Made by a program: the position numbers and the translations under genes. A model generated the notes under the pieces. It searched no databases. It was not told the origin of the DNA and was given only the letters and a program-made list of their open reading frames with translations. From Gammaproteobacteria bacterium (GTDB lineage: Bacteria; Pseudomonadota; Gammaproteobacteria; JABABF01), in contig OZ242171.1 in assembly GCA_965205525.1 (NCBI GenBank), positions 89,993 to 153,992 of the forward strand: 64,000 nucleotides of DNA, in the 5' to 3' direction. Shown in pieces: positions 1-26,894 of this stretch (positions are counted from its first letter, which is position 1; every line of letters begins with the position of its first letter).

Positions 1-1
1 T

Positions 2-865
2 AACTCCTTATCTGTTTACAGAGTGGATGCTGCAGAGGAGGATCTTGAAAGTGTGGGCCCCAGGCTCATGGGAGAGAATCCATTCCACATAACCGCTACC
101 GAGGAAGTACTGATTGCCAGTAATAATGTTCAAATTTCCCTTTTTCAAATAAATGAGGACGATACCATCAGCGGCCCTGTCAGCAGTCTACAAGGCTTCT
201 CACCGAACAGTGTGGCGGCCAGTCCCGCTGGCGGTCTAGTGTTTACCAACTCTGTTCTCAGTTCTTTTCTAGGAGTTTGGCAGGTGCTGGGAATCCCCCG
301 GGTGCCGGCGGGGCAGGAAGTGCGGGTGATGGTGAATGCAGAGTCGGCGCTGGACACCGCCCTGACCGTGATGGTGCAGGCGAGGCAGGGCAGCCGGGTT
401 CGCATGGCAGCGGCGACTCTGATGCCGTCAGATACTCAGGCGGAGGCCGTGTTCTCGGGGAGTGATCTGGGTCAGGGCGAGTGGATATTTTCGGCATCGG
501 TGCCGGCAGATATGGCAGATATTGTGGATGTATCGGCGGCCCGGGCGACACTGCGGATTAGCGGTCCGCTTGTCAGGCTGGAAAACCTGTCGGGCGTAAT
601 ACCAGAAGGAGCAGATCTGAATATCAGAGTGAGCACGGAGGGAATGGTTCCTGTGGCAGGGGATACGGAGGTGACCTTGCAGGCAGCGCAGGAGGGCGCT
701 CAGCCTCGGACGGCGATGGGATTATTACGGGAGGGGCAGACATCGGTCACGGTGACCTTTGCCGGCAGGGAATCCCTGATCGAGGGTGACTGGGTCTTGT
801 CAGCATCATCAATCCTGCCCACAGATGCAAATTCTACGCTTGCAGTGACCGTCGGGCCGCCTTTG
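2..865 (+). repeat. Module unit 1.0 (partial): last propeller blades (divergent, AT-richer subtype), domain A and domain B.
   Basis: It contains the near-invariant domain-A string GGTGCCGGCGGGGCAGGAAGTGCGGGTGATGGTGAATGCAGAG starting at about 301. Its VWQVLGIPRV junction is identical to that of unit 4.1. Confidence 0.8.
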
Positions 866-3800
866 ATCAGGCTGACCCTCTCGGTGGACCAGGGAGTGTC
901 ATCAGGGGAGATGAGGCTGGTCCAGACTGATACTAAACCCGGCTTGGGAACTGAAGAAGGGCTTGCTGTCAGTCCAGACGGCAGGTGGCTGCTTGCCGGC
1001 GGCATAAGCGGCAGAGGCTTCATCAGGACCTTGGAGATAGACAGCGTCAGGGGCATTGCCACCCCGGTTGAACTTTATACTGGCCTGGGAGGCCGTAGCC
1101 TGGCAGTGAGCCGAGACAGCAGTCTTGTGTTTGCATCGGATAATGCCTTTATGAGCACTATCAGTGTCTGGCGCCTGAATGCCGATGATGGCAGCCTGGA
1201 GGGAGTGGCACAGTACACAGGGGGAGGAACAGATGCTGCAGGGAACACCGTCAGAGGGCTGATTTCCACCCATGATGTCGTGCTGAGCCCGGATGACCGC
1301 CTGCTGTTTGTGACGAGCAACGGAGAGTCAAATTCAAATAATGGCGCCCTCAGTGTGTGGAGAGTAAGCCCTTCCGGCACCCTTGTTCAGACCGATGTGC
1401 ATGTCTCTGGCGGGGGTGCGGATACAGAGGGCTTGAACGCAATTGCCGGTGCCGCCGTGACCCCGGACGGCCGCCTGCTGTTTGCAGGGTCATTCTACGA
1501 TTCTGGTTTTTTAGACCACAGCACGCTCGGCATCTGGCGCGTGAATGCTGAAGCGTCTGCGGTTTCCTTTGTGAGGACTCTTTCCGACAGACGCATGCTG
1601 CGCAGGCCCCGGGTTGTGACCCTCGGCCCCTCCGGCCGTTTTCTGTTTGTGTCCAGCCAGGTTGGTGCAGATGCTGAAACAGACCCACTGTCTGTTTACG
1701 AAGTGAATGCTGCAGAGGAGAATCTTGCAAGTGTGGCCTCCTATGGCGAGGACATATCGGGGGATGCCATCGGCCTGGCCGTCACCAGAGAAGTGCTGGC
1801 AGTGGCCGAATTTACGCAGGGCAGTGTCGCTCTTTGGCAGAGAAATGATAATGGCACCCTCCGTTTTGCCAGCAGGCATGATTCAGCCAGCCCGGTTAGC
1901 CTGGCGGCCAGTCCGGCCGGCGGTCTGGTGTTTAGCAGCTCAAGCTCAAATGATGGGTCTGTCGGCATCAGCGTCTGGCGGGTGCAGGGGATCCCGCGGG
2001 TGCCGGCGGGGCAGGAAGTGCGGGTGATGGTGAATGCAGAGTCGGCGCTGGGCTCCGCCCTGACCGTGATGGTGCAGGCGAGGCAGGGCAGCCGGGTCAG
2101 CATGGCAGCGGCGACTCTGATGCCGTCAGATATTCAGGCAGAGGCCGTGTTCTCGGGGCGTGATCTGGGCCAGGGCGAGTGGATATTTTCGGCATCGGTG
2201 CCGACAGATATGGCAGATGTTGCGGATGTATCGACGGCCCGGGCGACACTGCGCATTGGCGGTCCGCTTGTCAGGCTGGAAAACCTGTCGGGTGTAATAC
2301 CAGAAGGGGCAGATCTGAATATCAGAATAAGCACGGAGGGACACCCTGTGCTGGAGGATGCAGAGGTGACCTTGCGGGCAACGCAGCAAGGCGCCCAGCC
2401 TCGGACGGTGATGGGATTATTACGGGAGGAGCAGGCAGAAGTTACGGTGACCTTTGCCGGCAGGCAATCTCTAACCGAGGGTGACTGGGTCTTGTCAGCA
2501 GAATCATCAGTTCTGTCCACAGATGAAAATTCTGGGCTTGATGTGACCGTCAGGCCGCCTTTGCCCAGGCTGACCCTCTCGGTGAACCAGGGAGTGTCTT
2601 CAGGGGAGATGAGGCTGGTCCAGACTGATGCTAACACCGGCCTTCCAGCTGGAGATAGTGAAGGGCTTGCCGTCAGTCCAGACGGCAGGTGGCTGCTTGC
2701 CAGCGGCGGCGGCCGCATCACGGTCTGGGAGATAGACAGCGTCAGGGGCATTGTCACCCAGAGAAGTACGGAAATGGGTACTGGCCTGGGAGGCCGTGGC
2801 CTGGCAGTGAGCCGAGACAGCCGTCTTGTGTTTACGTCGGATCGTGCCAGTACTAGCACTATCAGTGTCTGGCGCCTGAATGCCGATAATGGCGGACTGG
2901 AGGAAGTGGCAAAGTACACAGGGGGAGAAACAGATGCTGCAGAGAACACCGTCAGAGGGCTGACTGTCACCCATGCTGTCGTGCTGAGCCCGGATGAGCG
3001 CCTGCTGTTTGTGACGAGCAATGGGAGGCTGGACGATGAAGGAGTCCCCTTCGGCGGCGCACTCAGTGTGTGGAATGTAAACCCTTCCGGCACCCTTGTT
3101 CAGACCAATGTGCATGTCTCTGCCGGGGCTGAGGATACAGAGGGCTTGAACCAGATTGCCGGTGCCGCCGTGACCCCGGACGGCCGCCTGCTGTTTGCAG
3201 GGTCATTCCACGATTTTGGTTCATTCGACCGCAGCACGCTCGGCATCTGGCGTGTGAATGCTGAAGCGTCTACGGTTTCCTTTGTGAGGACTCGTCAAGA
3301 CACCCGCATGCTGCGCAGGCCCCGGGTTGTGACCCTCGGCCCCGCCGGCCGTTTTCTTTTTGTATCCAGCCAAGTTCTTAATGACGCTCAAATAGATCCA
3401 CTGTCTGTTTACAGAGTAAATGCTGCAGAGGAGGATCTTGTAAGTCTGGCCTCCTATGGCAATGACATAGAAGGGAGGACCATCGGCCTGGCTGCCACCA
3501 GAGAAGTGCTGGCAGTGGCCGAGGAGGATGGTGGTGGTGGTGGTGTCTCTCTTTGGCAGAGAAATAATGACGGCACCCTCCGTTTTGTTAGAAGGCATGC
3601 TTCATTCAGGCCGATTGGCCTGGCGGCCAGTCCGGCCGGCGGTCTGGTGTTTAGCAGCTCAAACGAAGGGTCTGAAGGCATCATCGTCTGGCAGGTGCAG
3701 GGAATCCCGCGGGTGCCGGCGGGACAGGAAGTGCGGGTGATGGTGAATGCAGAGCAGGCGCCGGACTCTGCCCGGACCGTGATGGTGCAGGCGAGGCAGG

Positions 3801-6583
3801 GCAGCCGGGTCAGCATGGCAGCGGCGACTCTGATGCCGTCAGACACTCAGGCGGCGGCCGTGTTCTCGGGGCGTGATCTGGGCCAGGGCGAGTGGATATT
3901 TTCGGCATCGGGGCTGACAGATACGGCAAAACTGCGCATTGGCAATCCGCTTATCAGGCTGGAAAACCTGTCGGGCAGAATACCAGAAGGGGCAGATCTG
4001 AATATCAGAATAAGCACGGAGGGACACCCTGTGCTGGAGGATGCACAGGTGACCTTGCGGGCAACGCAGGAAGGCGCTCAGCCTCGGACCGTGATGGGAT
4101 TATTACAGGAGGGGGAGACATCGGTTACGGTGACATTTGCTGGCGAAAATGCCCTGACCGGGGGAGACTGGGTCTTGTCGGCAGAATCATCAATCCTGTT
4201 CACAGATGCAAATTCTGTGCTTACAGTGACCGTTATACCGCTGCCTAAGCTGACCCTCTCGGTAGACCAGGGAGTGTCCTCGGGGGAGATGAGGCTGGTC
4301 CAGACTGATAACAAACGCCTTGCAAGTGGAACTGAAGAAGGGCTTGCTGTCAGTCCAGACGGCAGGTGGCTGCTTGCCAGCGGCGGCGGCGGCATCACGG
4401 TCTGGGAGATAGACAGCGTCAGGGGCATGGTCACCCAGAGCAGTGATCGTATGGGTGCTGGCCTGGGGGGCCGTGGCCTGGCAGTGAGCCGAGACAGCAA
4501 TTTTGTGTTTACGTCGGATGGTGCCAGTACTAGCACTATCAGTGTCTGGCGCCTGGATGCCGATGATGGCGGACTGGAGGAAGTGGCAAAGTACACAGGG
4601 GGAGGAACAGATGCTGCAGAGAACACCGTCAGAGGGCTGAGCTCTGTTTGGGATGTCGTGCTGAGCCCGGATGACCGCCTGCTGTTTGTGACGAGCGCGG
4701 GGGTGTCAGATAATGGCGCCCTCAGTGTGTGGAGTGTAAACACTTCCGGCACCCTTGTTCAGACCGATGTGCACCCTGCCGGGGATTCGAACACAGAGGG
4801 CTTGAACGCAATTGCCGGTGCCGCCGTGACCCCGGATGGCCGCCTGCTGTTTGCAGGGTCAACGCGAGACAGGAGGCTCAGCCTCTGGCGCGTGAATGCT
4901 GAAGCGTCTACGGTTTCCTTTGTGAGGACTATTCCCGACAATATCGGGCTGCGCAGGCCCCGGGTTGTGACCCTCGGCCCCGCCGGCCGTTTTCTGTTTG
5001 TGTCCAACTCGATTAATTCGAGTGACAATGATTCAGATTCACTGTCTGTTTACAAAGTGAATGCTGCAGAGGAGGATCTTACACTTGTGGACTCCTATGG
5101 CGGGTTAGGGGTTACCTTCGGCCTGGCCGTCACCAGGGAAGTGCTGGCATTGGTCTCAAGAAGTCAGAGCAATGTCACTCTTTGGCAGAGAAATGCTTCC
5201 GGCACCCTCAGTTTTGTCAGCAGGCATGCTTCAGGCAGAGCGCATGGCCTGGCGGCCAGTCCGGCCGGCGGTCTGGTGTTTAGCAGTTCAAACAGTGGGT
5301 CTGAAGGCATCAGCGTCTGGCGGGTGCAGGGAATCCCGCGGGTGCCGGCGGGGCAGGAAGTGCGGGTGATGGTGAATGCAGAGCCGACGCTGGGCTCTGC
5401 CCTGACCGTGACGGTGCAGGCGCGGCAGGGCAGCCGGGTCAGCACGGCAACGGCGACTCTGATGCCGTCAAACACTCAGGCGGAGGCCGTGTTCTCGGGG
5501 AGTGATCTGGGCCCGGGCGAGTGGATATTTTCGGCATCGGTGCCGGCAGATATGGCAGATGTTGCGGATGTATCGACGGCCCGGGCGACACTGCGCATTA
5601 GCGGTCCGCTTGTCAGTTTGGAGATGACTGGCGGAAGTGCCATCGTTGCCTCGGACGGGATGATAACGCTTATCCTGCGCGTGATGCCGGCACTATCCTC
5701 CACGGTCATGGTGACCGTGGCGGTGACCGATGAAGACAACAATACGATATCAGAGCAGCTGGAGGCTCTGTCCTCTTCCCTGCGGCTCACTTTCCGCGCC
5801 AGTGATTTGGGAACAGGCCGTCTGCGCTTTACTGCCCGGGGGCCGGCAGGAGTATTAGAAGACAGCGAAGCCGAGGTGACCGTGCTGGTGGACACTGCTG
5901 CTGGTGTCGTTCTGTCTGCAAATCCCGAGGAGGATGTCTTTCCGGGCGATGAGGTGCGCCTGTCGGCAGAAGTACTCTCCGGGTCAGACCTGGCCGGGAT
6001 AGATGTCGTGCTGGAGGTGGCAGTTGCACCTCCCGATGGAAGCACGCGCAGCAATGTCCTGATACCAGTGTCGGCTGAAACCTCTACGGGCACCCTGACC
6101 TTTATCCCGGATGCAGTGCCGGGCACTTGGAATTTCAACGTAATAGAGAGCGATGGGATAAGCGTATCTGCGACACTTACAGTGATGGTGGCGGCAGTCG
6201 TGCCCCTGCCCCTGGACTTCAATAATCCATCGGACGGGGTAAGCGCAGATGACCTGGTGCTGCTTCTGCGCTATGAGAGGCTGTGTGCGGGGGGAGATTC
6301 CCGGCCGCTGCCGGCCAATTGCTCTGCCCTCGGTTCCGAGGCACTGGCGGCTGGACTTGCCTTTGACAGTTCTTCCGACCGGCTGGCAGATCTGCAGAAT
6401 GTCCAGCTGCCGGATGTGACCGGCACCGGTATCGGCAGCGTGCAGACACTGGCCATACTGCTGCAGGCCTTGGCAAATGTCCAAGACGAATTGCTTCTTC
6501 CCGCCGCTGCTTCATCCGCCGAGGCCGAGCAGGCTCGCGATGCGCGGCTTCGCATTATCCGGCAGCTCCTGGGACGGGAATAG
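2..6583 (+). CDS. Giant secreted repeat protein, paralog 1 (5' end cut by window edge). It alternates 7-bladed lactonase/YVTN-like beta-propeller modules with Ig-like beta-sandwich domains and ends in the conserved C-terminal cassette with a dockerin-like segment.
   Basis: The frame is open from position 2: NSLSVYRVDAAEEDL matches the internal blade motif DPLSVY.VNAAEE, so the GTG at 23 is not the start. There are four propeller modules, the first partial. Their blade motifs are AVSPDGRWLL, AVSRDS.LVF, VVLSPD.RLLFVTS, AAVTPDGRLLFAGS, VVTLGP.GRFLFVS, GLA.TREVLAVAE and LAASPAGGLVFS. The stop codon is TAG at 6581-6583. An uninterrupted 6.5-kb ORF cannot arise by chance. Confidence 0.85.
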   Translation, partial: NSLSVYRVDAAEEDLESVGPRLMGENPFHITATEEVLIASNNVQISLFQINEDDTISGPVSSLQGFSPNSVAASPAGGLVFTNSVLSSFLGVWQVLGIPRVPAGQEVRVMVNAESALDTALTVMVQARQGSRVRMAAATLMPSDTQAEAVFSGSDLGQGEWIFSASVPADMADIVDVSAARATLRISGPLVRLENLSGVIPEGADLNIRVSTEGMVPVAGDTEVTLQAAQEGAQPRTAMGLLREGQTSVTVTFAGRESLIEGDWVLSASSILPTDANSTLAVTVGPPLIRLTLSVDQGVSSGEMRLVQTDTKPGLGTEEGLAVSPDGRWLLAGGISGRGFIRTLEIDSVRGIATPVELYTGLGGRSLAVSRDSSLVFASDNAFMSTISVWRLNADDGSLEGVAQYTGGGTDAAGNTVRGLISTHDVVLSPDDRLLFVTSNGESNSNNGALSVWRVSPSGTLVQTDVHVSGGGADTEGLNAIAGAAVTPDGRLLFAGSFYDSGFLDHSTLGIWRVNAEASAVSFVRTLSDRRMLRRPRVVTLGPSGRFLFVSSQVGADAETDPLSVYEVNAAEENLASVASYGEDISGDAIGLAVTREVLAVAEFTQGSVALWQRNDNGTLRFASRHDSASPVSLAASPAGGLVFSSSSSNDGSVGISVWRVQGIPRVPAGQEVRVMVNAESALGSALTVMVQARQGSRVSMAAATLMPSDIQAEAVFSGRDLGQGEWIFSASVPTDMADVADVSTARATLRIGGPLVRLENLSGVIPEGADLNIRISTEGHPVLEDAEVTLRATQQGAQPRTVMGLLREEQAEVTVTFAGRQSLTEGDWVLSAESSVLSTDENSGLDVTVRPPLPRLTLSVNQGVSSGEMRLVQTDANTGLPAGDSEGLAVSPDGRWLLASGGGRITVWEIDSVRGIVTQRSTEMGTGLGGRGLAVSRDSRLVFTSDRASTSTISVWRLNADNGGLEEVAKYTGGETDAAENTVRGLTVTHAVVLSPDERLLFVTSNGRLDDEGVPFGGALSVWNVNPSGTLVQTNVHVSAGAEDTEGLNQIAGAAVTPDGRLLFAGSFHDFGSFDRSTLGIWRVNAEASTVSFVRTRQDTRMLRRPRVVTLGPAGRFLFVSSQVLNDAQIDPLSVYRVNAAEEDLVSLASYGNDIEGRTIGLAATREVLAVAEEDGGGGGVSLWQRNNDGTLRFVRRHASFRPIGLAASPAGGLVFSSSNEGSEGIIVWQVQGIPRVPAGQEVRVMVNAEQAPDSARTVMVQARQGSRVSMAAATLMPSDTQAAAVFSGRDLGQGEWIFSASGLTDTAKLRIGNPLIRLENLSGRIPEGADLNIRISTEGHPVLEDAQVTLRATQEGAQPRTVMGLLQEGETSVTVTFAGENALTGGDWVLSAESSILFTDANSVLTVTVIPLPKLTLSVDQGVSSGEMRLVQTDNKRLASGTEEGLAVSPDGRWLLASGGGGITVWEIDSVRGMVTQSSDRMGAGLGGRGLAVSRDSNFVFTSDGASTSTISVWRLDADDGGLEEVAKYTGGGTDAAENTVRGLSSVWDVVLSPDDRLLFVTSAGVSDNGALSVWSVNTSGTLVQTDVHPAGDSNTEGLNAIAGAAVTPDGRLLFAGSTRDRRLSLWRVNAEASTVSFVRTIPDNIGLRRPRVVTLGPAGRFLFVSNSINSSDNDSDSLSVYKVNAAEEDLTLVDSYGGLGVTFGLAVTREVLALVSRSQSNVTLWQRNASGTLSFVSRHASGRAHGLAASPAGGLVFSSSNSGSEGISVWRVQGIPRVPAGQEVRVMVNAEPTLGSALTVTVQARQGSRVSTATATLMPSNTQAEAVFSGSDLGPGEWIFSASVPADMADVADVSTARATLRISGPLVSLEMTGGSAIVASDGMITLILRVMPALSSTVMVTVAVTDEDNNTISEQLEALSSSLRLTFRASDLGTGRLRFTARGPAGVLEDSEAEVTVLVDTAAGVVLSANPEEDVFPGDEVRLSAEVLSGSDLAGIDVVLEVAVAPPDGSTRSNVLIPVSAETSTGTLTFIPDAVPGTWNFNVIESDGISVSATLTVMVAAVVPLPLDFNNPSDGVSADDLVLLLRYERLCAGGDSRPLPANCSALGSEALAAGLAFDSSSDRLADLQNVQLPDVTGTGIGSVQTLAILLQALANVQDELLLPAAASSAEAEQARDARLRIIRQLLGRE
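866..2563 (+). repeat. Module unit 1.1: propeller, Ig-like domain A and Ig-like domain B (about 1.7 kb).
   Basis: The unit begins at the junction [PI]RLTLSV[DN]QGV.SGEMRLVQTD. The domain-A string recurs at about 1999. Domain B begins with GGPLVRLENLSG. Confidence 0.85.
2564..4243 (+). repeat. Module unit 1.2: propeller + A + B.
   Basis: It has the same junction (PRLTLSVNQGVSSGEMRLVQTD) and the same A and B strings. It also contains the in-frame (GGT)5 run at 3530-3544. Confidence 0.85.
4244..5599 (+). repeat. Module unit 1.3: propeller + A only; it joins directly to the 3' cassette.
   Basis: The unit starts at PKLTLSVDQG. After RATLRISGPLVS the sequence switches to LEMTGGSAIVASDG, which is the start of the 3' cassette. 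Confidence 0.8.
5600..6583 (+). repeat. Conserved 3' cassette, copy 1: two Ig-like domains, a dockerin-like double segment and a charged helical tail.
   Basis: The landmarks are LEMTGGSAIVASDGMITLILRVMPALSSTV..., LDFNNPSDGVSADDLVLLLRY, LPDVTGTGIGSVQTLAILLQAL and AEAEQARDARLRIIRQLLGRE*. The same block of about 980 nt ends all four genes. Confidence 0.9.
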
Positions 6584-6876
6584 AGAGCAGTATCTGTTCT
6601 TCATGCCCTGAAACCCACTTTGCGATCCATTTCTTGCCTGCGATACTTATAGGTGCGCCCCTTGCAAACCGGAATGGCACTAGTAACTAGTAAAGGGGGA
6701 GGGGGGGATACAATTGCCGCAAGCAGGTGACCTGCAGCCCTGCTTGGATTCCTCCTGCTGCAGCACAGTTGTTTATGTTAGATAGTCCAAAACTTGGCAT
6801 GCTGGTGCGGCAGATAAGAATAGTACTGCTGCTGCCTCTGCTGCTGCTTGCCTCTGCCTCTGTTCTGGCACAGGCG
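6584..6876 (+). repeat. Conserved 5' cassette, copy 1: intergenic leader plus signal-peptide coding region.
   Basis: The string AGAGCAGTATCTGTTCTTCATGCCCTGAAACCCACTTTGCGATCCATTTCTTGCCTGCGAT...GGAATGGCACTAGTA...G-tract...CTGCAGCCCTGC...GCTGCAGCACAG is repeated at 13174 and 17496. Confidence 0.9.
6695..6707 (+). repeat. Homopolymeric G tract G5-A-G7 in the leader of paralog 2.
   Basis: Read directly from the sequence: taaaGGGGGaGGGGGGGata. Confidence 0.95.
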
Positions 6877-13173: not shown

Positions 13174-13457
13174 AGAGCAGTATCTGTTCTTCATGCCCTG
13201 AAACCCACTTTGCGATCCATTTCTTGCCTGCGATCTTATAGGTGCGCTCCTTGCAAACTGGAATGGCACTAGTAAAAGGGGGGGGGGGGGAGCAAAAATA
13301 CCCGAATAAGGTGAGCTGCAGCCCTGCCTGGGTTCCTCCTGCTGCAGCACAGCCGTTTGTGTTTGACAGGCCAAAACTTGGCATGCTGGTGCGGCAGATA
13401 AGAATAGTACTGCTGCTGCCTCTGCTGCTTGCCTCTGTCTCTGTTCTGGCACAGGCG
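13174..13457 (+). repeat. Conserved 5' cassette, copy 2.
   Basis: It shares the sequence of 6584-6876. It differs in having one ACTAGTA copy instead of two, an uninterrupted G13 tract, and a divergent stretch of about 30 nt after the tract. Confidence 0.9.
13278..13290 (+). repeat. Homopolymeric G tract G13 in the leader of paralog 3.
   Basis: Read directly from the sequence: agtaaaaGGGGGGGGGGGGGagc. Confidence 0.95.
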
Positions 13458-17495: not shown

Positions 17496-17784
17496 AGAGC
17501 AGTATCTGTTCTTCATGCCCTGAAACCCACTTTGCGATCCATTTCTTGCCTGCGATTCTTATAGGTGCGCCCCTTGCAACCGGAATGGCACTAGTAACTA
17601 GTAAAAGGGGGAGGGGGGATACAATTGCCGCAAGCAGGTGACCTGCAGCCCTGCTTGGATTCCTCCTGCTGCAGCACAGTTGTTTATGTTAGATAGTTCA
17701 AAACTTGGCATACTGGTGCGGCAGATAAGAATAGTACTGTTGCTGCCTCTGTTGCTTGCCTCTGTCTCTGTTCTGGCACAGGCG
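17496..17784 (+). repeat. Conserved 5' cassette, copy 3.
   Basis: It is almost identical to 6584-6876. The G tract is one G shorter, and the ATG has changed to ATA at 17710-17712. Confidence 0.9.
17607..17618 (+). repeat. Homopolymeric G tract G5-A-G6 in the leader of paralog 4.
   Basis: Read directly from the sequence: gtaaaaGGGGGaGGGGGGata. Confidence 0.95.
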
Positions 17785-20700
17785 CCCAGGCTGACCCTCT
17801 CGGTGGATCAGGGAGTGCCCTCAGGGGAGCTCCGCCTAGTTAGGAAATCTGCCGCAAGTGGATCTAGCAGAAATCTTGGAGGACATGCCGTCAGTCCAGA
17901 CGGCAGGTGGCTGTTTTACGCTGGCAGTAATTTAGAGGTCTGGGAGATAGACAGTGCCAGAGGCATTGTCACGCAAAGGATGTCTTCTCCGCAGTCTGGC
18001 TTCTTTAGCTTCCTGGCAGTGAGCCGAGACAGCAGTCTTGTGTTTGTGCTGAATCGCCAAAATAACCAGATCACTGTCTTTCGCCTGAATGCCGATGATG
18101 GCAGACTGGAGGAAGTGGCAAAGTACACAGAGGGAGGAACAGATGCTGCAGGGAATACCGTCAGAGGGCTGACTAATGCTTCTGATGTCGTGCCAAGCCC
18201 GGATGGCCGACTGCTGTTTGTGACGAGCGGCGGGGATTCAGGGACTACCGGAGGCGCCCTCAGTGTGTGGAGTGTAAACTCCACCAGCACCCTCACTCAG
18301 ACCGATGTGCATGTCTCTGCCGGGGCTTCGGATACAGAGGGCTTGGAGAATGCTGCCGGTGCCGCCGTGACCCCGGACGGCCGCCTGCTGTTTGTAGGGT
18401 CATCCCACAATTTAGATTCATTAGACAACAGCACGCTCGGCATCTGGCGTGTGAATGCTGACGCGTCTACGGTTTCCTTTGTGAGGACTCTTTCCGACAG
18501 ACGCATGCTGCGCAGACCCCGGGTTGTGACCCTCGGCCCCGCCGGCCGTTTTCTGTTTGTGTCCAGCCGGGTTAGTGCAGATGCTGCAACAGATCCACTG
18601 TCTGTTTACGAAGTGAATGCTGCAGAGGAGAATCTTGCAAGTGTGGCCTCCTATGGCGAGGACGATGACATATTGGGGAATACCATCGGCCTGGCCGCCA
18701 CCAGAGAAGTGCTGGCAGTGGCCGAATTTGATCAGGGTAGTATCGCTCTTTGGCAGAGAAATGATGACGGCACCCTCCGCTTTGCCAGCAGGCATGATTC
18801 AGCCAGCTCGACTGGCCTGGCGGCCAGTCCGGCTGGTGGTCTGGTGTTTGTCAACTCATACCAAGAACGTTTCATAACTGTCTTGCAGGTGCTGGGAATC
18901 CCCCGGGTGCCGGCGGGGCAGGAAGTGCGGGTGATGGTGAATGCAGAGTCGGCGCTGGGCTCCGCCCTGACCGTGATGGTGCAGGCGAGGCAGGGCAGCC
19001 GGGTCAGCATGGCAGCGGCGACTCTGATGCCGTCAGATACTCAGGCGGAGGCCGTGTTCTCGGGGAGTGATCTGGGCCAGGGCGAGTGGATATTTTCGGC
19101 ATCGGTGCCGGCAGATATGGCAGATGTTGCGGATGTATCGACGGCCCGGGCGACACTGCGGATTGGCGGTCCGCTTGTCAGGCTGGAAAACCTGTCGGGC
19201 GCAATACCAGAAGGAGCAGATCTAAATATCAGAGTAAGCACGGAGGGGGCCCCCGTGCTGGGGGATGCGGAGGTGACCCTGCGGGCAGCGCAGGAAGGCG
19301 CTCGGCCTCGGACGGTGATGGGATTATTACGGGAAGGGCAGACATCGGTCACGGTGACCTTTGCCGGCAGGGGATCCCTGACCTTGGGTGACTGGGTCTT
19401 GTCAGCATCATCAATCCTGTCCACAGATGAAAATTCTACGCTTGCAGTGACCGTCGGGCCGCCTTTGCCCAGACTGACCCTCTCAGTGGACCAAGGAGTG
19501 CCATCAGGGGAGCTCCGCCTTAGGAGATCTTCTGCCGTAAGAACAAATTTAATTGGCAGTAAACGACTTGCCGTCAGTCCAGACGGCAGGTGGCTGCTTG
19601 CCAGCACCAGCTTCCGCATCACGCTCAGGGAGATAGACAGCGCTAGGGGCATTGTCGCGCGAAGAATGTCTTCTGCGAGTCCTGGCGCATCTCGCGGCCT
19701 GGCAGTGAGCCCAGACAGCAGTCTTGTGTTTGTGCCGAATGAATCAAATAACCAGATCACTGTCTTTCGCCTGAATGCCGATGAAGGCAGACTGGAGGAA
19801 GTGGCAAAGTACACAGAGGGAGGAGAAGATGCTGCAAGGAATCGCATCAGCGGGCTGGCTAATGCTGATGATGTCGTGCCAAGCCCGGATGGCCGCCTGC
19901 TGTTTGTGACGAGCAGAGGGGCTGCCAACGCCCTCAGTGTGTGGAATGTAAACCCTTCCGGCACCCTTGTTCAGACCGATGTGCATGTCTTTGCCGGAGC
20001 TTTGGGTAACCAGGCTGCCGGTGCCGCCGTGACCCCGGACGGCCGCCTGCTGTTTGTAGGGGGGGCTGGTACGCTCAGCATCTGGCGTGTGAATGCTGAA
20101 GCGTCTACGGTTTCCTTTGTGAGGACTCTTTCCGACAGACGCAGGCTGCGCAGACCCTCGGTTGTGACCCTCGGCCCCGCCGGCCGTTTTCTGTTTGTGT
20201 CCAGCCAGTTTGCTGCAGATTCTGCAACAGATCCACTGTCTGTTTACGAAGTGAATGCTGAAGAGGAGAATCTTGCAAGTCTGGCCTCCTATGGCGATGA
20301 CATAGAAGGGTCTGCCAGAGGTCTGGCCGCCACCAGAGAAGTGCTGGCAGTGGCCGAATTCAAATTGTCGCAGGGTAGTATCGCTCTTTGGCAGAGAAAT
20401 GCTTCCGGCACCCTCAGTTTTGTCAGCAGGCATGATTCACGCCTCCCGGTTGACCTGGCGGCCAGTCCGGCCGGCGGTCTGGTGTTTATCAGTTCAAATC
20501 GTTCGTCTGAAGGCATCAGCGTCTGGCAGGTGCAGGGAATCCCGCGGGTGCCGGCGGGGCAGGAAGTGCGGGTGATGGTGAATGCAGAGCCGGCGCCGGA
20601 CTCTGCCCTGACCGTGACGGTGCAGGCGAGGCAGGGCAGCCGGGTCAGCACGGCAGAGGCGACTCTGATGCCGTCAGGCACTCTGGCAGTGGCCGAGTTC

Positions 20701-23700
20701 CCGGGGAGTGATCTGGGCCCGGGCGAGTGGATATTTTCGGCATCGGTGTCGGCAGATATGCCGGCAGATATGGCAGATGTTGCGGATGTATCGGCGGCCC
20801 GGGCGACACTGCGGATTAGCGGTCCGCTTATCAGGCTGGAAAACCTGTCGGGCGAAATACTGCAGGGAGCAGATCTGAATATCAGAGTGAGCACGGAGGG
20901 AATGGTTCCTGTGGCAGGGAATGCGGAGGTGACCCTGCGGGCAACTCAGGAAGGTGCCCAGCCTCGGATGGTGGTGGGATTATTACGGAAGGGGCAGATA
21001 TCATTTACGGTGACCTTTGCCGGCGGATCAGTCCTGACCGCGGGTGACTGGGTCTTGTCGGCAGAATCATCAATCCCCCTGCTCCGCACAGATTCAAGTT
21101 CTTTCCTTGTAGTGACCGTCAGACCGCCGCCGCTTATCAGGCTGGAAAACCTGTCGGGCGAAATACTGCAGGGAGCAGATCTGAATATCAGAGTGAGCAC
21201 GGAGGGAATGGTTCCTGTGGCAGGGAATGCGGAGGTGACCCTGCAGGCAACCCAAGAAGGCGCCCAGCCTCAGACGGTGATGGGATTATTACGGGAGGGG
21301 CAGACATCGGTTACGGTAACCTTTGCCGGCGAGAAAGCCCTGACCGAGGGTGACTGGATCTTGTCGGCAGAATCATCAATTCTGCTGTCCACAGATGCAA
21401 ATTCTACCTTTGCAGTGACCGTCGGACCTCCTTTGCCTAGGCTGACCCTCTCAGTGGACCAGGGAGTGCCTTCGGGGGAGATGAGGCTGGTCCAGACTGA
21501 TGCTACCAGCCTTCTAGATTCATTAATATTTACAGGAGGGCTTGTTGCTGTCAGTCCAGACGGCAGGTGGCTGCTTGCCAGCGGCGGCGGCCGCATCACG
21601 CTCAGGGAGATAGACAGCGCTAGGGGCATTGTTACCCCGGTAGCAACTTATCGGGGTGCTGGCCTGGGAGGTAATAGTCTGGCAGTGAGCCGAGACAGCA
21701 GTCTTGTGTTTACGTCGGATAGGAACACCAGTACTAGCACTATCAGTGTCTGGCGCCTGGATGCCGATGATGGCAGACTGGAGGAAGTGGCAAAGTACAC
21801 AGAGGGAGGAACAGATGCTGCAGGGAACACCGTCAGAGGGCTGATTTTCACCCATGGTGTCGTGCTGAGCCCGGATGACCGCCTGCTGTTTGTGACGAGC
21901 AGGGGGGAGCCAGACAGTGCCGGAGGCGCCCTCAGTGTGTGGAGTGTAAATCCCTCCGGCACCCTTGTTCAGACCGATGTGCATATCTCTGCTGGGGCTT
22001 CGGATACAGAGGGCTTGAACCGGGCTGCCGGTGCCGCCGTGACCCCGGACGGCCGCCTGCTGTTTGTAGGGTCATTCTACGATTCTGATTCATTAGACAG
22101 CAGCACACTCGGCATCTGGCGTGTGAATGCTGAAGCGTCTACGGTTTCCTTTGTGAGGACTCTTTCCGACAGACGCATGCTGCGAAGACCCCGGGTTGTG
22201 ACCCTCGGCCCGGACGGCCGTTTTCTGTTTGTATCCAGCCAGGTTGATAATGATGCTGCAATAGATCCACTGTCTGTTTACGAAGTGAATGCTGCAGAGG
22301 AGAATCTTGCAAGTGTGGCCTCCTATGGCGATGACATATCGGGGGATACCATCGGCCTGGCCGCCACCAGAGAAGTGCTGGCAGTGGCCGAATCTTCGCT
22401 GGATGGTGTCGCTCTTTGGCAGAGAAATGATAACGGTACCCTCAGTTTTGCCAGCAGGCATGATTCAGCCAGCCCGGCTGGCCTGGCGGCCAGTCCAGCC
22501 GGCGGTCTGGTGTTTAGCGGCTCATCCGATAGGTCTGTCGGCATCACCGTCTGGCAGGTGCAGGGAATCCCGCGGGTGCCGGCAGGGCAGGAAGTGCGGG
22601 TGATGGTGAATGCAGAGCCGGCGCCAGACTCTGCCCTGACCGTGATGGTGCAGGCGAGGCAGGGCAGCCGGGTTCGTATGGCAGCGGCGACTCTGATGCC
22701 GTCAGATACTCAGGCGGAGGCAGTGTTCTCGGGGAGTGCTCTGGGCCAGGGCGAGTGGATATTTTCGGCATCGGTGCCGGCAGATATGGCAGATAGGGCA
22801 GATAGGACGGCTCTGTCGGCAGCCCGGGCGACACTGCGCATCGGCGGGCCGCTTATCAGGCTTTCAAACCTGTCGGGCGTAATACTGCAGGGAGCAGATC
22901 TGAATATCAGAGTAAGCACGGAGGGACACCCCGTGCTGGAGGATGCAGAAGTGACCCTGCGGGCAACTCAGGAAGGCGCCCGGCCTCGGATGGTGGTGGG
23001 ATTATTACGGAAGGGGCAGATATCATTTACGGTGACCTTTGCCGGCGGATCAGTCCTGACCGCGGGTGACTGGGTCTTGTCGGCAGAATCATCAATCCCC
23101 CTGCTCCGCACAGATTCAAGTTCTTTCCTTGTAGTGACCGTCAGACCGCCGCCGCTTATCAGGCTGGAAAACCTGTCGGGCGCAATACCAAAAGGAGCTG
23201 ATCTGAATATCAGAGTAAGCACGGAGGGAATGGTTCCTGTGGCAGGGAATGCGGAGGTGACCCTGCAGGCAACCCAAGAAGGCGCCCAGCCTCAGACGGT
23301 GATGGGATTATTACGGGAGGGGCAGACATCGGTTACGGTGACCTTTGCTGGCGAGAAAGCCCTGACCGAGGGTGACTGGATCTTGTCGGCAGAATCATCA
23401 ATTCTGCTGGGCACAGATGCAAATTCTATGCTTGCAGTGACCGTCAGGCTGCCCAGACTGACCCTCTCGGTGGACCAGGGAGTGCCGTCAGGGGAAATGA
23501 GGCTGGTCCAGACTGATGTTAACACCGACCTTATGAGTAGATCAGTATATCCAGAAGGGCTTACTGTCAGTCCAGACGGCAGGTGGCTGCTTGCCAGCGG
23601 CGGCGGCATCACGGTCTGGGAGATAGACAGCGTCAGGGGCATTGTCACCACGGTAGAAACTTATCGGGGTACTGGCCTGGGAGGTAATGGTCTGGCAGTG

Positions 23701-26700
23701 AGCCGAGACAGCAGTCTTGTGTTTACATCGCATGGTGCCAGTATTAGCACTATCAGTGTCTGGCGCTTGGATGCCGATGATGGCAGTCTGGCGGAAGTGG
23801 CACAGTACACAGAGGGAGGAGAAGATGCTGCAGGGAATATCGTCAGAGGGCTGACTTTCACCCATGATGTCGTGCTGAGCCCGGATGACCGCCTGCTGTT
23901 TGTGACGAGCAGGGGGGAGCCAGACAGTGCCGGAGGCGCCCTCAGTGTGTGGAGTGTAAACTCTTCCGGCACCCTTGTTCAGACCGATGTGCATGTCTCT
24001 GCCGGGGCTTCGGATACAGAGGGCTTGAACCGGGCTGCCGGTGCCGCCGTGACCCCGGACGGAGGCCTGCTGTTTGTAGGGTCAGACTACGACGATCAGC
24101 AATTGGATAAGAGTACGCTCAGCATCTGGCGTGTGCGTGTGAATGCTGAAACGTCTACGGCTACGGTCTCCTTTGTGAGGACTCTTTCCGACGAACGCAT
24201 GCTGAGCAGACCCTGGGTTGTGACCCTAGGCCCCTCCGGCAGTTTTCTGTTTGTGTCCAGCCAGATTGTTGATGCAGATGCTGAAACAGATCTACTGTCT
24301 GTTTACGAAGTGAATGCTGCAGAGGAGAATCTTGCAAGTGTGGCCTCCTATGGCGAGGACGACATATTGAGGGCTGCCTTTGGCCTGGCCGCCACCAGAG
24401 AAGTGCTGGCAGTGGCCGAACTTTCGCAGGGTAGTGTCTCTCTTTGGCGGAGAAACAATGACGGCACCCTCCGCTTTGCTAGCAGGCATGCTTCAGACAT
24501 CCCGTTTGACCTGGTGGCCAGTCCAGCCGGCGGTCTGGTGTTTAGCAGCTCATTCGGGGATGCTGGCAGCGTCTGGCAGGTACAGGGAATCCCGCGGGTG
24601 CCGGCGGGGCAGGAAGTGCGAGTGATGGTGAATGCAGAGTCGGCGCTGGACTCCGCCCTGACCGTGATGGTGCAGGCGAGGCAGGGCAGCCGGGTCAGCA
24701 CGGCAGCGGCGACTCTGATGCCGTCAGATACTCAGGCGGAGGCCGTGTTCTCGGGGAGCACTCTGGGCCAGGGCGAGTGGATATTTTCGGCATCGGTGCC
24801 GGCAGATATGGCAGATGTTGCGGATGTATCGGCGGCCCGGGCGACACTGCGCATCGGCAGTCCGCTTGTCAGGCTGGAAAACCTGTCGGGCGCAATACGA
24901 GAAGGAGCAGATCTGAATATCAGAATAAGCACGGAGGGACACCCTGTGCTGGAGGATGCACAGGTGACCTTGCGGGCAACACAGGAAGGCGCTCGGCCTC
25001 GGACGGTGATGGGATTATTACGGGAGGGGCAGACATCGGTCACGGTGACCTTTGCCGGCGAGAAAGCCCTGACCCAAGGTGTATGGATCGTGTCGGCGGA
25101 GACATCGTCAACGCTGTTGCAGACAGATGCAAATTCTACCCTTGCAGTGACTGTCGGACCGCCTTTGCCCAAGCTGACCTTCTCCCTGCAGGAGACTGCA
25201 GAGCCAGTGGTGCCGGCAGGCAGTACTTTGGAGGTTACGGTGATGGCAGATCGTCCCCTGCTGCAGACTCTGACGGTGACGGTACAGGCAGTTCGTACCG
25301 TTACAGCACCGCCGACGGTGACGACAGCAACGGTGACGACTCAGCTATTTGCACAAGAGCAGGTCGGAAGGGCTCTCTTTGAAGGGGAGAATACGCTGTC
25401 CCCAGGCCAATGGGTCCTGACGATTGCGAAAGTCCTGCCCGAGAACTCTGCCGAAGCATCCACTCAGCAGCTGCAGGTGAGGGTAGGATCATCAGCCCTT
25501 GGCCTGTCGGCACCAATGGGTCTGTTCCAAGGGCGGGATGCGGTGATTGAGGTAAATACGGAGGTGGCGCTGGGGGTGGAGGTGCGTGTCATGGTGATGG
25601 CAACCCATGCAGAAGCTCCAGCCACAACGGCATCAGCCGCCGCCGTACTTGGACCCTCTGCACTTGCCGCCGAAGCGAGGTTCCCTGCGGACATGCTGAG
25701 CTTGGTGAGAGAGGGGACTTGGGATTTTGAGATTACTGCGGCGACGCCCTCTGTACTGATGATAGATACGGAGGCTTTTCCCCTAGTGGACTTCACAGAG
25801 GCATCGGCAACACTGCAAGTGACAGAAGAGCCGACTCTTCTCCTGGAGCTGACTGGCGGAAGTGCCATCGTTGCCTCGGACGGGATGATAACGCTTATCC
25901 TGCGCGTGATGCCGGCACTATCCTCCACGGTCATGGTGACCGTGGCGGTGACCGATGAAGACAACAATACGATATCAGAGCAGCAGGAGGCTCTGTCCTC
26001 TTCCCTGCGGCTCACTTTCCGCGCCAGTGATTTGGGAACAGGCCGTCTGCGCTTTACTGCCCGGGGGCCGGCAGGAGTATTAGAAGACAGCGAAGCCGAG
26101 GTGACCGTGCTGGTGGCCACTGCTGCTGGTGTCGTTCTGTCTGCAAATCCCGAGGGAGATGTCTTCCCGGGTGATGAGGTGCGCCTGTCGGCAGCAGTAC
26201 TCTCCGGGCCAGACCCGGCCGGGATAGATGTCGTGCTGGAGGTGGCAGTTACGGATCCCGATGGAAGCACGCGCAGCAATGTCCTGATACCAGTGTCGGC
26301 TGAAACCTCTACGGGCGGCCTGACCTTTATCCCGGATGCAGTGCCGGGCACTTGGAATTTCAACGTAATAGAGAGCGATATGGTAAGCGCATCTATGATA
26401 CTTACAGTGGTGGTGGCGGCAGTCATGCCCCTGGACTTCAACGATCCATCGGACGAGGTAAGCGCAGATGACTTGGTGCTGCTTCTGCGCTATGAGAGGC
26501 TGTGTGCAGAGGGAAGTTCCCCGCCGTTGCCGGCCAGCTGCACTGACCTCGGTTCCGAGGCACTGGCGGCTGGACTTGCCCTTGAAAGTTCTCCCGACCG
26601 GCTGGCAGATCTGCAGAATGTCCGGCTGCCGGATGTGACCGGCACTGGTGTCGGCAGTGTGCAGACACTGACTATACTGCTGCAGGCCTTGGCAAATGTC

Positions 26701-26820: not shown

Positions 26821-26894
26821 AGAGCAGTAAGCGAAGAGCTGCTGTTTAGCGCATCCTATTGTTTTCCGGAGCGGAATAGGAAGCACAGAGGTGA

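What the first reader, a model, noticed from the sequence alone, without database searches (positions are those of the whole stretch)
866..25167. Conserved scaffold with loop-restricted hypervariability across the 12 propeller copies
Seen in sequence: stretches of tens of nucleotides are almost invariant between copies within and between genes. One example is GGTGCCGGCGGGGCAGGAAGTGCGGGTGATGGTGAATGCAGAG; others are the blade strands. A few short segments, in contrast, differ in both sequence and length in nearly every copy. (1) After RLVQTD I read TKPGLGTEEG, ANTGLPAGDSEG, NKRLASGTEEG, VHFFTSGSNVGG, ATSLLDSLIFTGGL and VNTDLMSRSVYPEG. (2) Between FVTS and ALSVW I read NGESNSNNG, NGRLDDEGVPFGG, AGVSDNG, RGESDSAGG, GGDSGTTGG and RGAAN. 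(3) Between AGS and STLGIW I read FYDSGFLDH, FHDFGSFDR, FHGSHSFFS and YYDDRFIVGF; the whole segment is TRDRRLSLW in one copy. (4) Between FVS and DPLSVY I read SQVGADAET, SQVLNDAQI, NSINSSDNDSDS, NLIRGAEI and SQIVDADAET. Inference: concerted evolution by gene conversion homogenises the scaffold, while diversifying selection or recombination acts on what are probably loops on one face of the propeller. That pattern is expected for a ligand- or antigen-binding repertoire.
Basis: partly seen in the sequence, partly recalled or inferred. Interest (0 to 1): 0.8.

Follow-up and report, generated by a model that had tools for sequence, protein, structure and literature searches.

The report
Giant propeller proteins with variable face
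Four neighbouring giant genes of an uncultured marine-type bacterium encode strings of seven-bladed propeller domains whose cores are nearly identical, while the loops on one face differ in almost every copy and are reshuffled by recombination, which looks like a bacterial repertoire of binding surfaces.

Summary
Four tandem + strand genes (A–D, window 2–26820) carry 11 complete propeller modules plus a 12th cut by the window's left edge. All quoted loop peptides and the quoted 43-mer were found. A predicted structure gives a 7-bladed propeller. Variability and 54 of 70 indel columns fall in the B–C and D–A loops, which by topology share one face (top versus bottom loops, p=6e-14). Both chain ends leave from the opposite face.

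Recombination is strongly supported:
- Nearest neighbours switch along the modules.
- D1 and D2 are chimeras of two propeller types.
- Relatedness between loops decays with distance.
- A second strain is 99.3% identical in the flank. It has one module 100% identical, one gene tail converted to a paralog's sequence, two modules swapped for the other type, and genes C and D missing.

First, dN/dS is about 1 across the whole propeller (loops 1.32, strands 1.16; flank 0.10). The loop/scaffold contrast is mainly total divergence, synonymous sites included (2.2-fold). Second, within-array homogenisation is weak.

No retroelement-type mutagenesis was found. A binding function is inferred, not shown. 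This is a new variant of a known kind.

The parts
2..6583 (+). Gene A (5' end beyond the window). It holds a partial module A0, modules A1-A3, spacer domains and the C-terminal tail.
   Evidence: Pfam Lactonase PF10282 was matched on the paralogs C and D.
6727..13173 (+). Gene B. The likely start is the ATG near 6775-6799, followed by a signal peptide. It holds modules B1 and B2, a long beta-rich region and the tail.
13242..17495 (+). Gene C: signal peptide, modules C1 and C2, tail.
   Evidence: PF10282, 97 bits against a cut-off of 21.7
17638..26820 (+). Gene D: signal peptide, modules D1-D4, beta-rich region, tail. The array ends here and the housekeeping flank begins at about 26830.
   Evidence: (PF10282, 192 bits, 8 stretches)
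1..304 (+). A0: the C-terminal part of a 12th propeller, cut by the window edge. It is of the second (type II) kind.
   Evidence: it matches the C-terminal halves of the type II modules X2, X3 and Z2
872..2002 (+). Propeller module A1 (type I)
2570..3715 (+). Propeller module A2 (type I)
4250..5344 (+). Propeller module A3 (type I). It is 100% identical in the second strain.
6883..8022 (+). Propeller module B1 (type I). The second strain has a type II module at this position.
8599..9723 (+). Propeller module B2 (type I). The second strain has a type II module at this position.
13464..14597 (+). Propeller module C1 (type I). This copy was used for the structure model.
15162..16292 (+). Propeller module C2 (type I)
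17791..18909 (+). Propeller module D1, a chimera. The N-terminal half is type II and most of the C-terminal half is type I.
19474..20550 (+). Propeller module D2, a finer mosaic of type II and type I segments.
21442..22578 (+). Propeller module D3 (type I)
23458..24600 (+). Propeller module D4 (type I)
13524..13559 (+).
13920..13946 (+).
14094..14123 (+).
14259..14288 (+).
16289..16331 (+). One of the 11 copies of the quoted 43-mer. It lies at the junction of propeller and spacer (VPAGQEVRVMVNAE).
5630..6580 (+). Conserved C-terminal tail of gene A. Its paralogs are at 12208-13170, 16548-17492 and 25855-26817. In the second strain this tail carries the B-type sequence.
6695..6707 (+). G5AG7 tract upstream of gene B, directly followed by the -10-like hexamer TACAAT.
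13278..13290 (+). G13 tract upstream of gene C.
17607..17618 (+). G5AG6 tract upstream of gene D.

Best explanation
The locus is a tandem array of genes for giant Sec-exported proteins. Each protein is a chain of 7-bladed beta-propellers (about 375 aa) separated by pairs of small beta-rich spacer domains, and it ends in a conserved tail.

In each blade the inner hairpin (strand A, A-B turn, strand B; the SPDGR-LLF motif) is almost invariant, down to the nucleotide. The B-C and D-A loops together form one face of the propeller. That face is opposite the one where the chain enters and leaves. These loops differ in sequence and length in nearly every copy.

Diversity is not made by a dedicated mutator. 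It is stored as many alternative loop sequences. Homologous recombination redistributes them between modules, between genes and between strains. The conserved blade cores serve as homology anchors, so tracts of a few hundred nucleotides, whole modules or whole genes are exchanged. The result is mosaic modules with combinatorial loop sets.

Shown here: the fold, the restriction of variability to one face, the mosaicism and the turnover between strains.

Inferred: selection keeps the loops different because that face binds something (host, prey, phage or surface ligands). The array would then be a repertoire of binding specificities, perhaps switched by poly-G tracts upstream of each gene.
For: Fold:
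- Pfam PF10282 scores 97-192 bits.
- The AF2 model has pLDDT 81.7, pTM 0.87 and 28 strands, i.e. 7 blades of 4.
- Foldseek top hits are YbhE/6-phosphogluconolactonase-like and WD40 propellers.

Face restriction:
- Column entropy is 1.32 in B-C loops, 0.99 in D-A, 0.16 in A-B and 0.48 in C-D. Top versus bottom gives p=6e-14, and 54 of 70 gap columns are in top loops.
- The pattern is replicated in an independent 9-module protein, P0126 (p=3e-11).

Exported, intact genes:
- ORFs run 1417-3060 codons without a stop and carry signal peptides.

Recombination within the window:
- 76 distinct bipartitions for 11 sequences; 49% of informative site pairs are incompatible; PHI p=0.015.
- In 75-nt windows the nearest neighbour keeps changing, with zero-difference tracts between non-adjacent modules.
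- D1 and D2 are type II/type I chimeras.
- Loop-to-loop relatedness falls from r=0.32 for adjacent loops to about 0 five loops apart (p=0.0006).

Strain comparison (L084):
- The flank is 99.28% identical, with pS 0.012 and omega 0.10.
- The array is a patchwork ranging from 100% identity (1650 bp including module A3) to about 55%.
- The second strain's A tail is 98.5% identical to this window's B tail and 94.0% to its A tail. 52 of 58 differences are alleles present in paralogs.
- The B ortholog carries type II modules, and genes C and D are absent.

Selection hint:
- pN/pS is 1.32 (CI 1.09-1.60) in top loops, 0.2 in the N-terminal linker and 0.10 in the flank.
Against: - dN/dS is about 1 in the strands, spacers and tails as well (1.16, 0.76, 0.89). 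The loops are not clearly singled out by this measure.
- Loop alignments are partly unreliable and saturated.
- Recombination invalidates tree-based site tests, and none was run.
- No expression, localisation or binding data exist.
- The outer-membrane or secretion route is unknown. No Pfam family matched the spacers or tail, and the tail model is poor (pLDDT 48).
- Within-array homogenisation is weak.
- The comparison strain comes from 2-5x metagenome contigs.
- In the distant relative P0136 the face restriction is weak (p=0.03).
Confidence: 0.7

Rival explanations
1. Tolerant loops under relaxed constraint. The modules are redundant structural spacers. Loops vary because they are unconstrained and prone to indels, and recombination only shuffles neutral variation. 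There is no diversifying selection and no binding repertoire.
For: - pN/pS is near 1 over the whole propeller, spacers and tails.
- Variable-site fractions are equal at codon positions 1, 2 and 3 in the strands.
- Loop composition (G, D, N, S) is ordinary for loops.
Against: - Reading frames of up to 3060 codons are intact, and all indels are in frame.
- Bottom-face loops of similar size are nearly invariant, so being a loop is not enough.
- pN/pS in top loops has a CI above 1.
- The array is about 27 kb of what may be a ~2 Mb genome, which is costly for neutral filler.
- Modules are turned over between strains far faster than the flank diverges.
Confidence: 0.2
2. Targeted hypermutation. A diversity-generating retroelement or another local mutator rewrites the loops.
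For: The variability is sharply localised on a conserved scaffold.
Against: - No reverse transcriptase is among the genes of the 64 kb window.
- There is no array-like template outside the array.
- All four bases vary equally in the loops (A 0.72, C 0.81, G 0.70, T 0.69).
- The loops differ in length.
- Module A3, with all its loops, is 100% identical between two strains whose flanks differ at pS 0.012.
Confidence: 0.02
3. Assembly artefact. The mosaic and the copy differences come from mis-assembly or collapse of a long repeat.
For: - The region is a 27 kb array of units about 85% identical.
- The comparison contigs have only 2-5x coverage, and some carry frameshifts.
Against: - The window has four uninterrupted ORFs of 1417-3060 codons.
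- Copies differ by about 15%, which long reads resolve easily.
- An independent contig reproduces 1650 bp exactly and joins the array to the same flank.
- Independent proteins in the 1.84-billion library have the same architecture.
Confidence: 0.03
4. Enzyme array. The propellers are active lactonase- or cycloisomerase-type enzymes, and the loop differences tune substrate range.
For: - The modules match Pfam PF10282.
- The closest folds include 6-phosphogluconolactonases.
- Two long D-A loops on the variable face are conserved.
Against: - Identity to the enzymes is only 15-18%.
- The face that carries the active site in such enzymes (established knowledge) is the hypervariable one here.
- Up to 9 or more modules are strung on spacer domains in secreted giant proteins, which is an adhesin-like rather than enzyme-like layout.
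Confidence: 0.05

Closest known systems
Neisseria Opa proteins (multi-locus opacity adhesins)
   Same: - About a dozen full-length expressed paralogs.
- A conserved beta scaffold with hypervariable surface loops.
- Loops reshuffled by recombination among loci and between strains.
- Simple-repeat phase variation. Here the candidate is the set of poly-G tracts.
   Basis: established knowledge and the abstract of bioRxiv 10.64898/2026.02.02.703239.
   Different: - Opa is an 8-stranded outer-membrane barrel of about 250 aa encoded at dispersed loci.
- Here the units are soluble 7-bladed propellers chained inside giant proteins in one tandem array.
- There is no homology between the two.
- Opa phase variation uses a coding pentamer repeat, not an upstream homopolymer.
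Giant1-5 extracellular proteins of Apilactobacillus kunkeei (PMC12863079)
   Same: - Consecutive genes for proteins of 3000-8000 aa.
- They occupy several percent of a small (1.5 Mb) symbiont genome.
- Diversification within the population is mostly by short intragenic recombination (abstract).
   Different: - The host is a Gram-positive bacterium.
- The binding domain is one N-terminal beta-solenoid per protein.
- There are no repeated propeller modules and no face-restricted loop hypervariability.
Cassette-type antigenic variation (pilE/pilS, VlsE, Anaplasma Msp2, Treponema TprK)
   Same: - Variable segments are bracketed by conserved sequence.
- They are exchanged by segmental gene conversion, giving mosaics.
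   Different: - Those systems have one expression site fed by silent partial donors.
- Here every module sits in a long intact ORF with its own signal peptide and upstream region.
[quoted passage not shown]
   Same: - The sequence-family match and the fold agree.
- A secreted PF10282-family member (Sporothrix Gp60-70) acts as an adhesin/antigen with high polymorphism (PMC12667341).
   Different: - Those are single-domain proteins.
- Identity to them is 15-18%.
- They do not occur as multi-module arrays with hypervariable top loops.
WD40-type propellers as binding platforms
   Same: Partners are typically bound on the top face formed by the D-A and B-C loops (established knowledge). That is the face that varies here.
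   Different: Eukaryotic WD40 proteins are single conserved scaffolds. They are not recombining paralog repertoires.
Diversity-generating retroelement targets (e.g. Bordetella phage Mtd)
   Same: A conserved scaffold displays a localised hypervariable binding surface.
   Different: - No reverse transcriptase, no template repeat and no adenine bias were found here.
- Length variation is present.

Membership tests
[quoted passage not shown] | Profile match above the curated gathering score | tested here: met
   97.3 bits (gene C) and 191.6 bits (gene D) against a cut-off of 21.7.
[quoted passage not shown] | Seven blades of four antiparallel strands | tested here: met
   The AF2 model has 28 strands and pTM 0.87. 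Foldseek matches 1RI6, 3HFQ and 6NAU at TM 0.63-0.72.
[quoted passage not shown] | Lactonase/cycloisomerase catalytic activity | not testable with these tools
   No assay is available. The face that would hold the active site is hypervariable.
Diversity-generating retroelement system | Reverse transcriptase gene near the variable gene | tested here: not met
   Pfam scans of the array proteins and 30 flanking ORFs found no RT. The genome beyond the 64 kb window was not seen.
Diversity-generating retroelement system | Template/variable repeat pair with adenine-specific substitutions and no length change | tested here: not met
   All bases vary equally, no array-like copy lies outside the array, and loop lengths differ.
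Cassette-type antigenic variation (expression site plus silent donors) | One expressed copy and promoterless partial donor cassettes | tested here: not met
   All 11 modules lie in four long intact ORFs. Of the three genes whose 5' ends lie in the window (B, C, D), each has a signal peptide and a conserved upstream region.
Cassette-type antigenic variation (expression site plus silent donors) | Segmental gene conversion producing mosaic variable regions | tested here: met
Opa-like multi-locus variable adhesin family (by analogy, not homology) | Several full-length paralogs with hypervariable exposed loops on a conserved scaffold, exchanged between loci | tested here: met
   The fold is different and there is no sequence homology.
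Opa-like multi-locus variable adhesin family (by analogy, not homology) | Phase variation through a simple-sequence repeat | tested here: inconclusive
   Tracts of G11-G15, interrupted or not, lie upstream of every gene and differ in length between paralogs and strains. No read-level length heterogeneity or expression data are available.
Uncharacterised giant multi-propeller protein family (hits) | Repeating unit of one propeller plus two beta-rich spacer domains in proteins of 2-7 kaa | tested here: met
   - P0126: 5337 aa, 9 modules, 77% identity.
- P0136: 4314 aa, about 42% identity, same unit order.
- 44 cluster representatives have E<1e-30.

The most novel reading that the evidence does not exclude
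The array is a bacterial combinatorial recognition repertoire. The invariant blade cores have been kept identical at the DNA level because they act as recombination anchors. They let individual top-face loop cassettes be swapped between dozens of propeller modules, within and between cells. The poly-G tracts switch individual giant genes on and off. Together this would give a small-genome, probably host-associated gammaproteobacterium an adaptive, antibody-like set of binding surfaces on a fold not previously known to be used this way.
Probability: 0.3. Interest if true: 0.85.

Novelty: new variant of a known kind. Interest (0 to 1): 0.62.

Why it matters
Multigene families with a conserved scaffold and recombining hypervariable loops are the classic solution for surface variation in pathogens. 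They are known on beta-barrels, pilins and lipoproteins. I found no description of one built from beta-propellers chained inside giant proteins.

If the variable face binds ligands, three things follow:
- The locus would be a natural library of propeller binders on one stable scaffold, which is useful for protein engineering.
- It would be a handle on how an uncultured bacterium recognises its partners. The genome may be about 2 Mb, and the bacterium is possibly symbiotic.
- It offers a clean natural case for studying how the length and spacing of conserved homology tracts set the grain of gene conversion.

Tried and rejected
- Word-indexed homolog searches with a module and with the tail found only fragments from one ENA sample. 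The index evidently misses the giant proteins, because the exhaustive search later found them.
- Scans of GTDB species genomes and JGI metagenomes with family peptides found nothing. An exact 23-mer DNA scan gave one chance hit, L083, which tblastn showed is not a relative.
- My GENECONV-like run-length test gave 38 of 55 pairs at p<0.05. I do not rely on it, because spatially clustered rate variation inflates it. The bipartition, painting, chimera and loop-decay analyses replace it.
- A DGR explanation was rejected.
- Structure prediction of the C-terminal tail gave an unusable model (pLDDT 48). Lenient Pfam scans of the tail and spacers gave only sub-threshold Ig-like hints. 'Ig-like' and the dockerin-like look of the tail are therefore my reading only.
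- The promoter/terminator scan was uninformative.
- Loop amino-acid composition gave no specific clue to a ligand.
- A test for concerted evolution against a different species was not possible. The two nearest relatives have a conjugative element at this site and no array within the 10 kb seen beyond the NDH-2-like gene.

Full report
**Anatomy**

The first 26.8 kb of the window hold four tandem + strand ORFs: A 2..6583 (open at the left edge), B 6727..13173, C 13242..17495 and D 17638..26820.

The three genes whose 5' ends lie in the window (B, C, D) share one plan. After a Sec-type signal peptide (MLDSPKLGMLVRQIRIVLLLPLLLLASASVLAQA) comes a repeated unit. [quoted passage not shown] B and D have extra beta-rich stretches. 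All four genes end in a tail of about 320 aa that is 87-91% identical between genes.

The rest of the window is ordinary housekeeping: an NDH-2-like gene, hemN, rdgB, metW/metX, gshB, argH, hemC/D, metF, ahcY, metK, tkt, gap, pgk, fba, ilvA, rnr and others.

The organism is a gammaproteobacterium without a close sequenced relative. Its best transketolase match in 185,579 species genomes is 65% identical. The window's NDH-2-like protein is on record on a contig of 1,998,239 bp.

**Check of the observation**

There are 11 complete modules, and a 12th is cut by the window start. The quoted 43-mer is present 6 times exactly and 5 times with one mismatch. It encodes the start of the spacer (VPAGQEVRVMVNAE), just after the propeller. 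All quoted loop peptides are in the alignment.

Pairwise nucleotide identity of the modules is 77-88% and star-like. Runs invariant in all 11 copies reach 24 nt, and any two modules share about 9.6 exact tracts of at least 25 nt. Variability is strongly clustered: lag-1 autocorrelation of column entropy is 0.42, against a maximum of 0.17 in 2000 permutations.

**Where the variable segments sit**

An AlphaFold2 model of module C1, built from the 11-copy alignment, has pLDDT 81.7 and pTM 0.87. It has 28 strands, which is seven four-stranded blades closed by the N-terminal strand. Foldseek places it with YbhE/6-phosphogluconolactonase-like and WD40 propellers at TM 0.63-0.72.

I classed each alignment column by strand or loop.

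| Element | Mean entropy | Gap fraction |
|---|---|---|
| B-C loops | 1.32 | 0.31 |
| D-A loops | 0.99 | – |
| C-D loops | 0.48 | – |
| A-B loops | 0.16 | – |
| Strands | 0.3-0.7 | – |

In an up-and-down four-stranded blade, the B-C and D-A loops lie on one face and the A-B and C-D loops on the other. This follows from topology and is established knowledge. I could not read the model's coordinates.

Top-face loops are more variable than bottom-face loops (Mann-Whitney p=6e-14). They hold 54 of the 70 columns with gaps. B-C loops average 10.3 distinct sequences per 11 copies and a length range of 4.9 residues. A-B loops average 2.4 distinct sequences and no length variation.

The other B-C loops and several D-A loops behave the same way. 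By the same topology, the chain enters and leaves the propeller on the conserved face, so the variable face points away from the spacers.

The pattern repeats in an independent nine-module protein of the same clade, P0126 (p=3e-11). It is weak in a relative about 42% identical, P0136 (p=0.03).

**Substitution pattern**

| Region | pN/pS | 95% CI |
|---|---|---|
| Top loops | 1.32 | 1.09-1.60 |
| Strands | 1.16 | 0.93-1.48 |
| Bottom loops | 0.80 | 0.42-1.45 |
| N-terminal linker | 0.20 | 0.05-0.37 |

The top-versus-strand difference is not significant (P=0.19). Spacers and tails give 0.76 and 0.89. The same method gives 0.10 for six flanking housekeeping genes compared between two strains, so the method is not the cause.

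What does separate loops from scaffold is total divergence, silent changes included. pS is 0.33 in B-C loops and 0.18 in D-A loops, against 0.08-0.15 elsewhere. The ratio is 2.2-fold (CI 1.6-3.1), also in gap-free columns. Codons whose amino acid never changes have a similar pS (0.06-0.09) in all classes. The excess therefore belongs to wholesale-different loop sequences and not to a raised background mutation rate.

Uniformly low synonymous divergence, which would indicate simple recent duplication, is excluded. Long intact frames combined with an average omega near 1 argue for a mix of constrained and favoured changes. Loop-specific positive selection is suggested, not shown.

**Recombination within the window**

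- Eleven sequences show 76 different two-state splits. 49% of informative site pairs are incompatible, and the PHI test gives p=0.015.
- In 75-nt windows each module's nearest relative keeps changing. Pairs with zero differences in one window differ at 15-20 positions in another.
- D1 is a chimera. Its first ~480 alignment columns are 85-98% identical to a second propeller type seen in related contigs, and its later part is 88-99% identical to type I. D2 is a finer mosaic.
- Among the nine pure type I modules, similarity at one top loop predicts similarity at the next loop (r=0.32). This falls to zero about five loops (roughly 400 nt) away (permutation p=0.0006). Loop sets are close to independently assorted.

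**Comparison between strains**

One ENA sample (ERZ25069326) holds three contigs with related arrays: L001, L002 and L084.

L084 carries an NDH-2-like protein 100% identical to the window's. Its flank is 99.28% identical over 7.4 kb (32 substitutions, pS 0.012). It is therefore a second strain of the same species.

At the array boundary (window ~26830) this collinear identity ends. Inside the array the picture is patchy:
- 1650 bp, including module A3 with all its loops, are 100% identical.
- Neighbouring stretches are 85-96% identical.
- The gene in B's position carries two type II propellers, about 72% identical to B1 and B2.
- Genes C and D are absent, so the B ortholog abuts the flank.

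The tail of the gene in A's position is 98.5% identical to the window's B tail and only 94.0% to its A tail. 52 of the 58 differences from A are alleles present in window paralogs. This is a direct footprint of paralog-to-paralog conversion or unequal exchange since the strains split.

The identical A3 module also shows that the loops are not being continuously mutated.

Homogenisation in the classical sense is weak. Type I modules are 76.8% identical within the window, 76.0% within P0126 and 75.3% between them (excess 1 point, p=0.009). Several window modules have their nearest relative in P0126. The modules behave as one recombining pool rather than as arrays homogenised separately.

**Alternatives excluded or weakened**

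- Diversity-generating retroelement: no reverse transcriptase in the window, no template copy outside the array, all four bases equally variable, and loop lengths differ.
- Assembly artefact: unlikely, given four uninterrupted giant ORFs, the independent contig and independent database proteins with the same architecture. Reads were not available.
- Enzymatic role: not excluded, but it fits poorly with a hypervariable active-site face and an adhesin-like chain of modules.

**Most likely mechanism**

The invariant inner hairpin of each blade brackets every variable loop with tracts long enough for RecA-type homologous exchange. This is my inference and the known length requirement of about 20-30 bp. 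Short conversion tracts can therefore move single loops or small groups of loops. Longer events replace modules, tails or whole genes.

Selection for different binding faces would then keep loop diversity, while the cores stay alike.

Shown: fold, face restriction, mosaicism, strain turnover. Inferred: exposure, binding, selection, and the anchor role of the cores.

**Relation to known systems**

In logic the locus is closest to the Neisseria Opa family and to cassette-based antigenic variation. In genomic style it is closest to the giant surface-protein cluster of Apilactobacillus kunkeei, which diversifies by short intragenic recombination (PMC12863079).

By sequence it belongs to PF10282. 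One secreted member of that family is a polymorphic adhesin/antigen in Sporothrix (PMC12667341).

It differs from all of these in using chained propellers with a variable top face, all in expressed-looking full-length genes.

An exhaustive search found 44 cluster representatives at E<1e-30. Among them are giant proteins with up to 23 matched stretches. An uncharacterised wider family therefore exists. Two literature searches found no description of it.

**Limits**

- There are no read-level, expression or binding data.
- The comparison contigs are low coverage, and some have frameshifts.
- The left end of the array is outside the window.
- Selection tests are pairwise and ignore phylogeny.

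Noticed in passing
window 6695-6707, 13278-13290, 17607-17618; L084 (reverse complement) about 3032; L001 about 11853; L002 about 9459: Every array gene has a poly-G tract about 70-85 nt upstream of its likely start, directly followed by a -10-like hexamer (TACAAT, TATAAT or TAAAAT). Its form differs between paralogs and strains: G5AG7, G13, G5AG6, G14, G15 and G13. It is a candidate slipped-strand phase-variation switch. Homopolymer sequencing error of about 1 nt is not excluded.
   Followed up: partly
window 2-26820 (genes A-D): The giant proteins are almost free of lysine: 0.07-0.53%, with one K in 1370 aa of gene C. Fourteen housekeeping proteins of the same window have 2.9%. Cys (0.1% versus 1.8%) and His (0.5% versus 2.5%) are also depleted. 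Unexplained. It could relate to protease resistance or to avoiding lysine-directed host modification.
   Followed up: partly
L085 12007-21629; L086 12221-21632 (relatives with the NDH-2-like protein 86% and 81% identical): In both relatives the site next to the NDH-2/cNMP-binding gene holds an ICE-type conjugation cluster (DUF2859, RAQPRD, DUF3487, DUF2895, DUF3438, TraC_F_IV, TraU) where this genome has the array. The array may sit at, or have arrived through, an integration hot spot.
   Followed up: partly
window 13174-26829 versus L084: The second strain lacks genes C and D. Its B ortholog is joined to the same flank, which fits unequal crossing-over between the conserved 3' tails of B and D.
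   Followed up: partly
window 17710: In gene D the ATG that begins MLVRQIRIV in B and C reads ATA. An in-frame ATG 24 nt upstream (MLDSSKLGI...) is present in all three genes and is the more likely common start.
   Followed up: partly
window modules, alignment columns 128-143 and 198-209 (C1 residues 120-135 and 182-193): Two long D-A loops on the otherwise variable face are conserved: GGTDAAGNTVRGL and SAGASDTEGLN. They may form a fixed patch or a metal/ligand site in the middle of the variable ring.
   Followed up: no
window 20550-25200 (gene D): Before D3 and again before D4 there is a nearly repeated extra spacer unit (PLIRLENLSGEILQGADLNIRVSTEG...SSFLVVTVRPPPLIRLENLSG...). This indicates a tandem duplication of about 2 kb containing a whole spacer-plus-propeller unit, since diverged mainly in the loops (both copies are hit by the same L001 segment).
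   Followed up: no
L001 265-1360; L002 6051-7199 and 9654-10731: Three modules in the related low-coverage contigs (X1, Y4, Y5) have frameshifts or stops. They are either sequencing errors at 2-4x coverage or decaying copies.
   Followed up: no
window 1-26000: GC skew is strongly positive (0.10-0.17) across the array and close to zero in the flank. G+C is slightly lower in the array (0.58-0.60 versus 0.60-0.65). This probably reflects the biased amino-acid composition of the array proteins.
   Followed up: no
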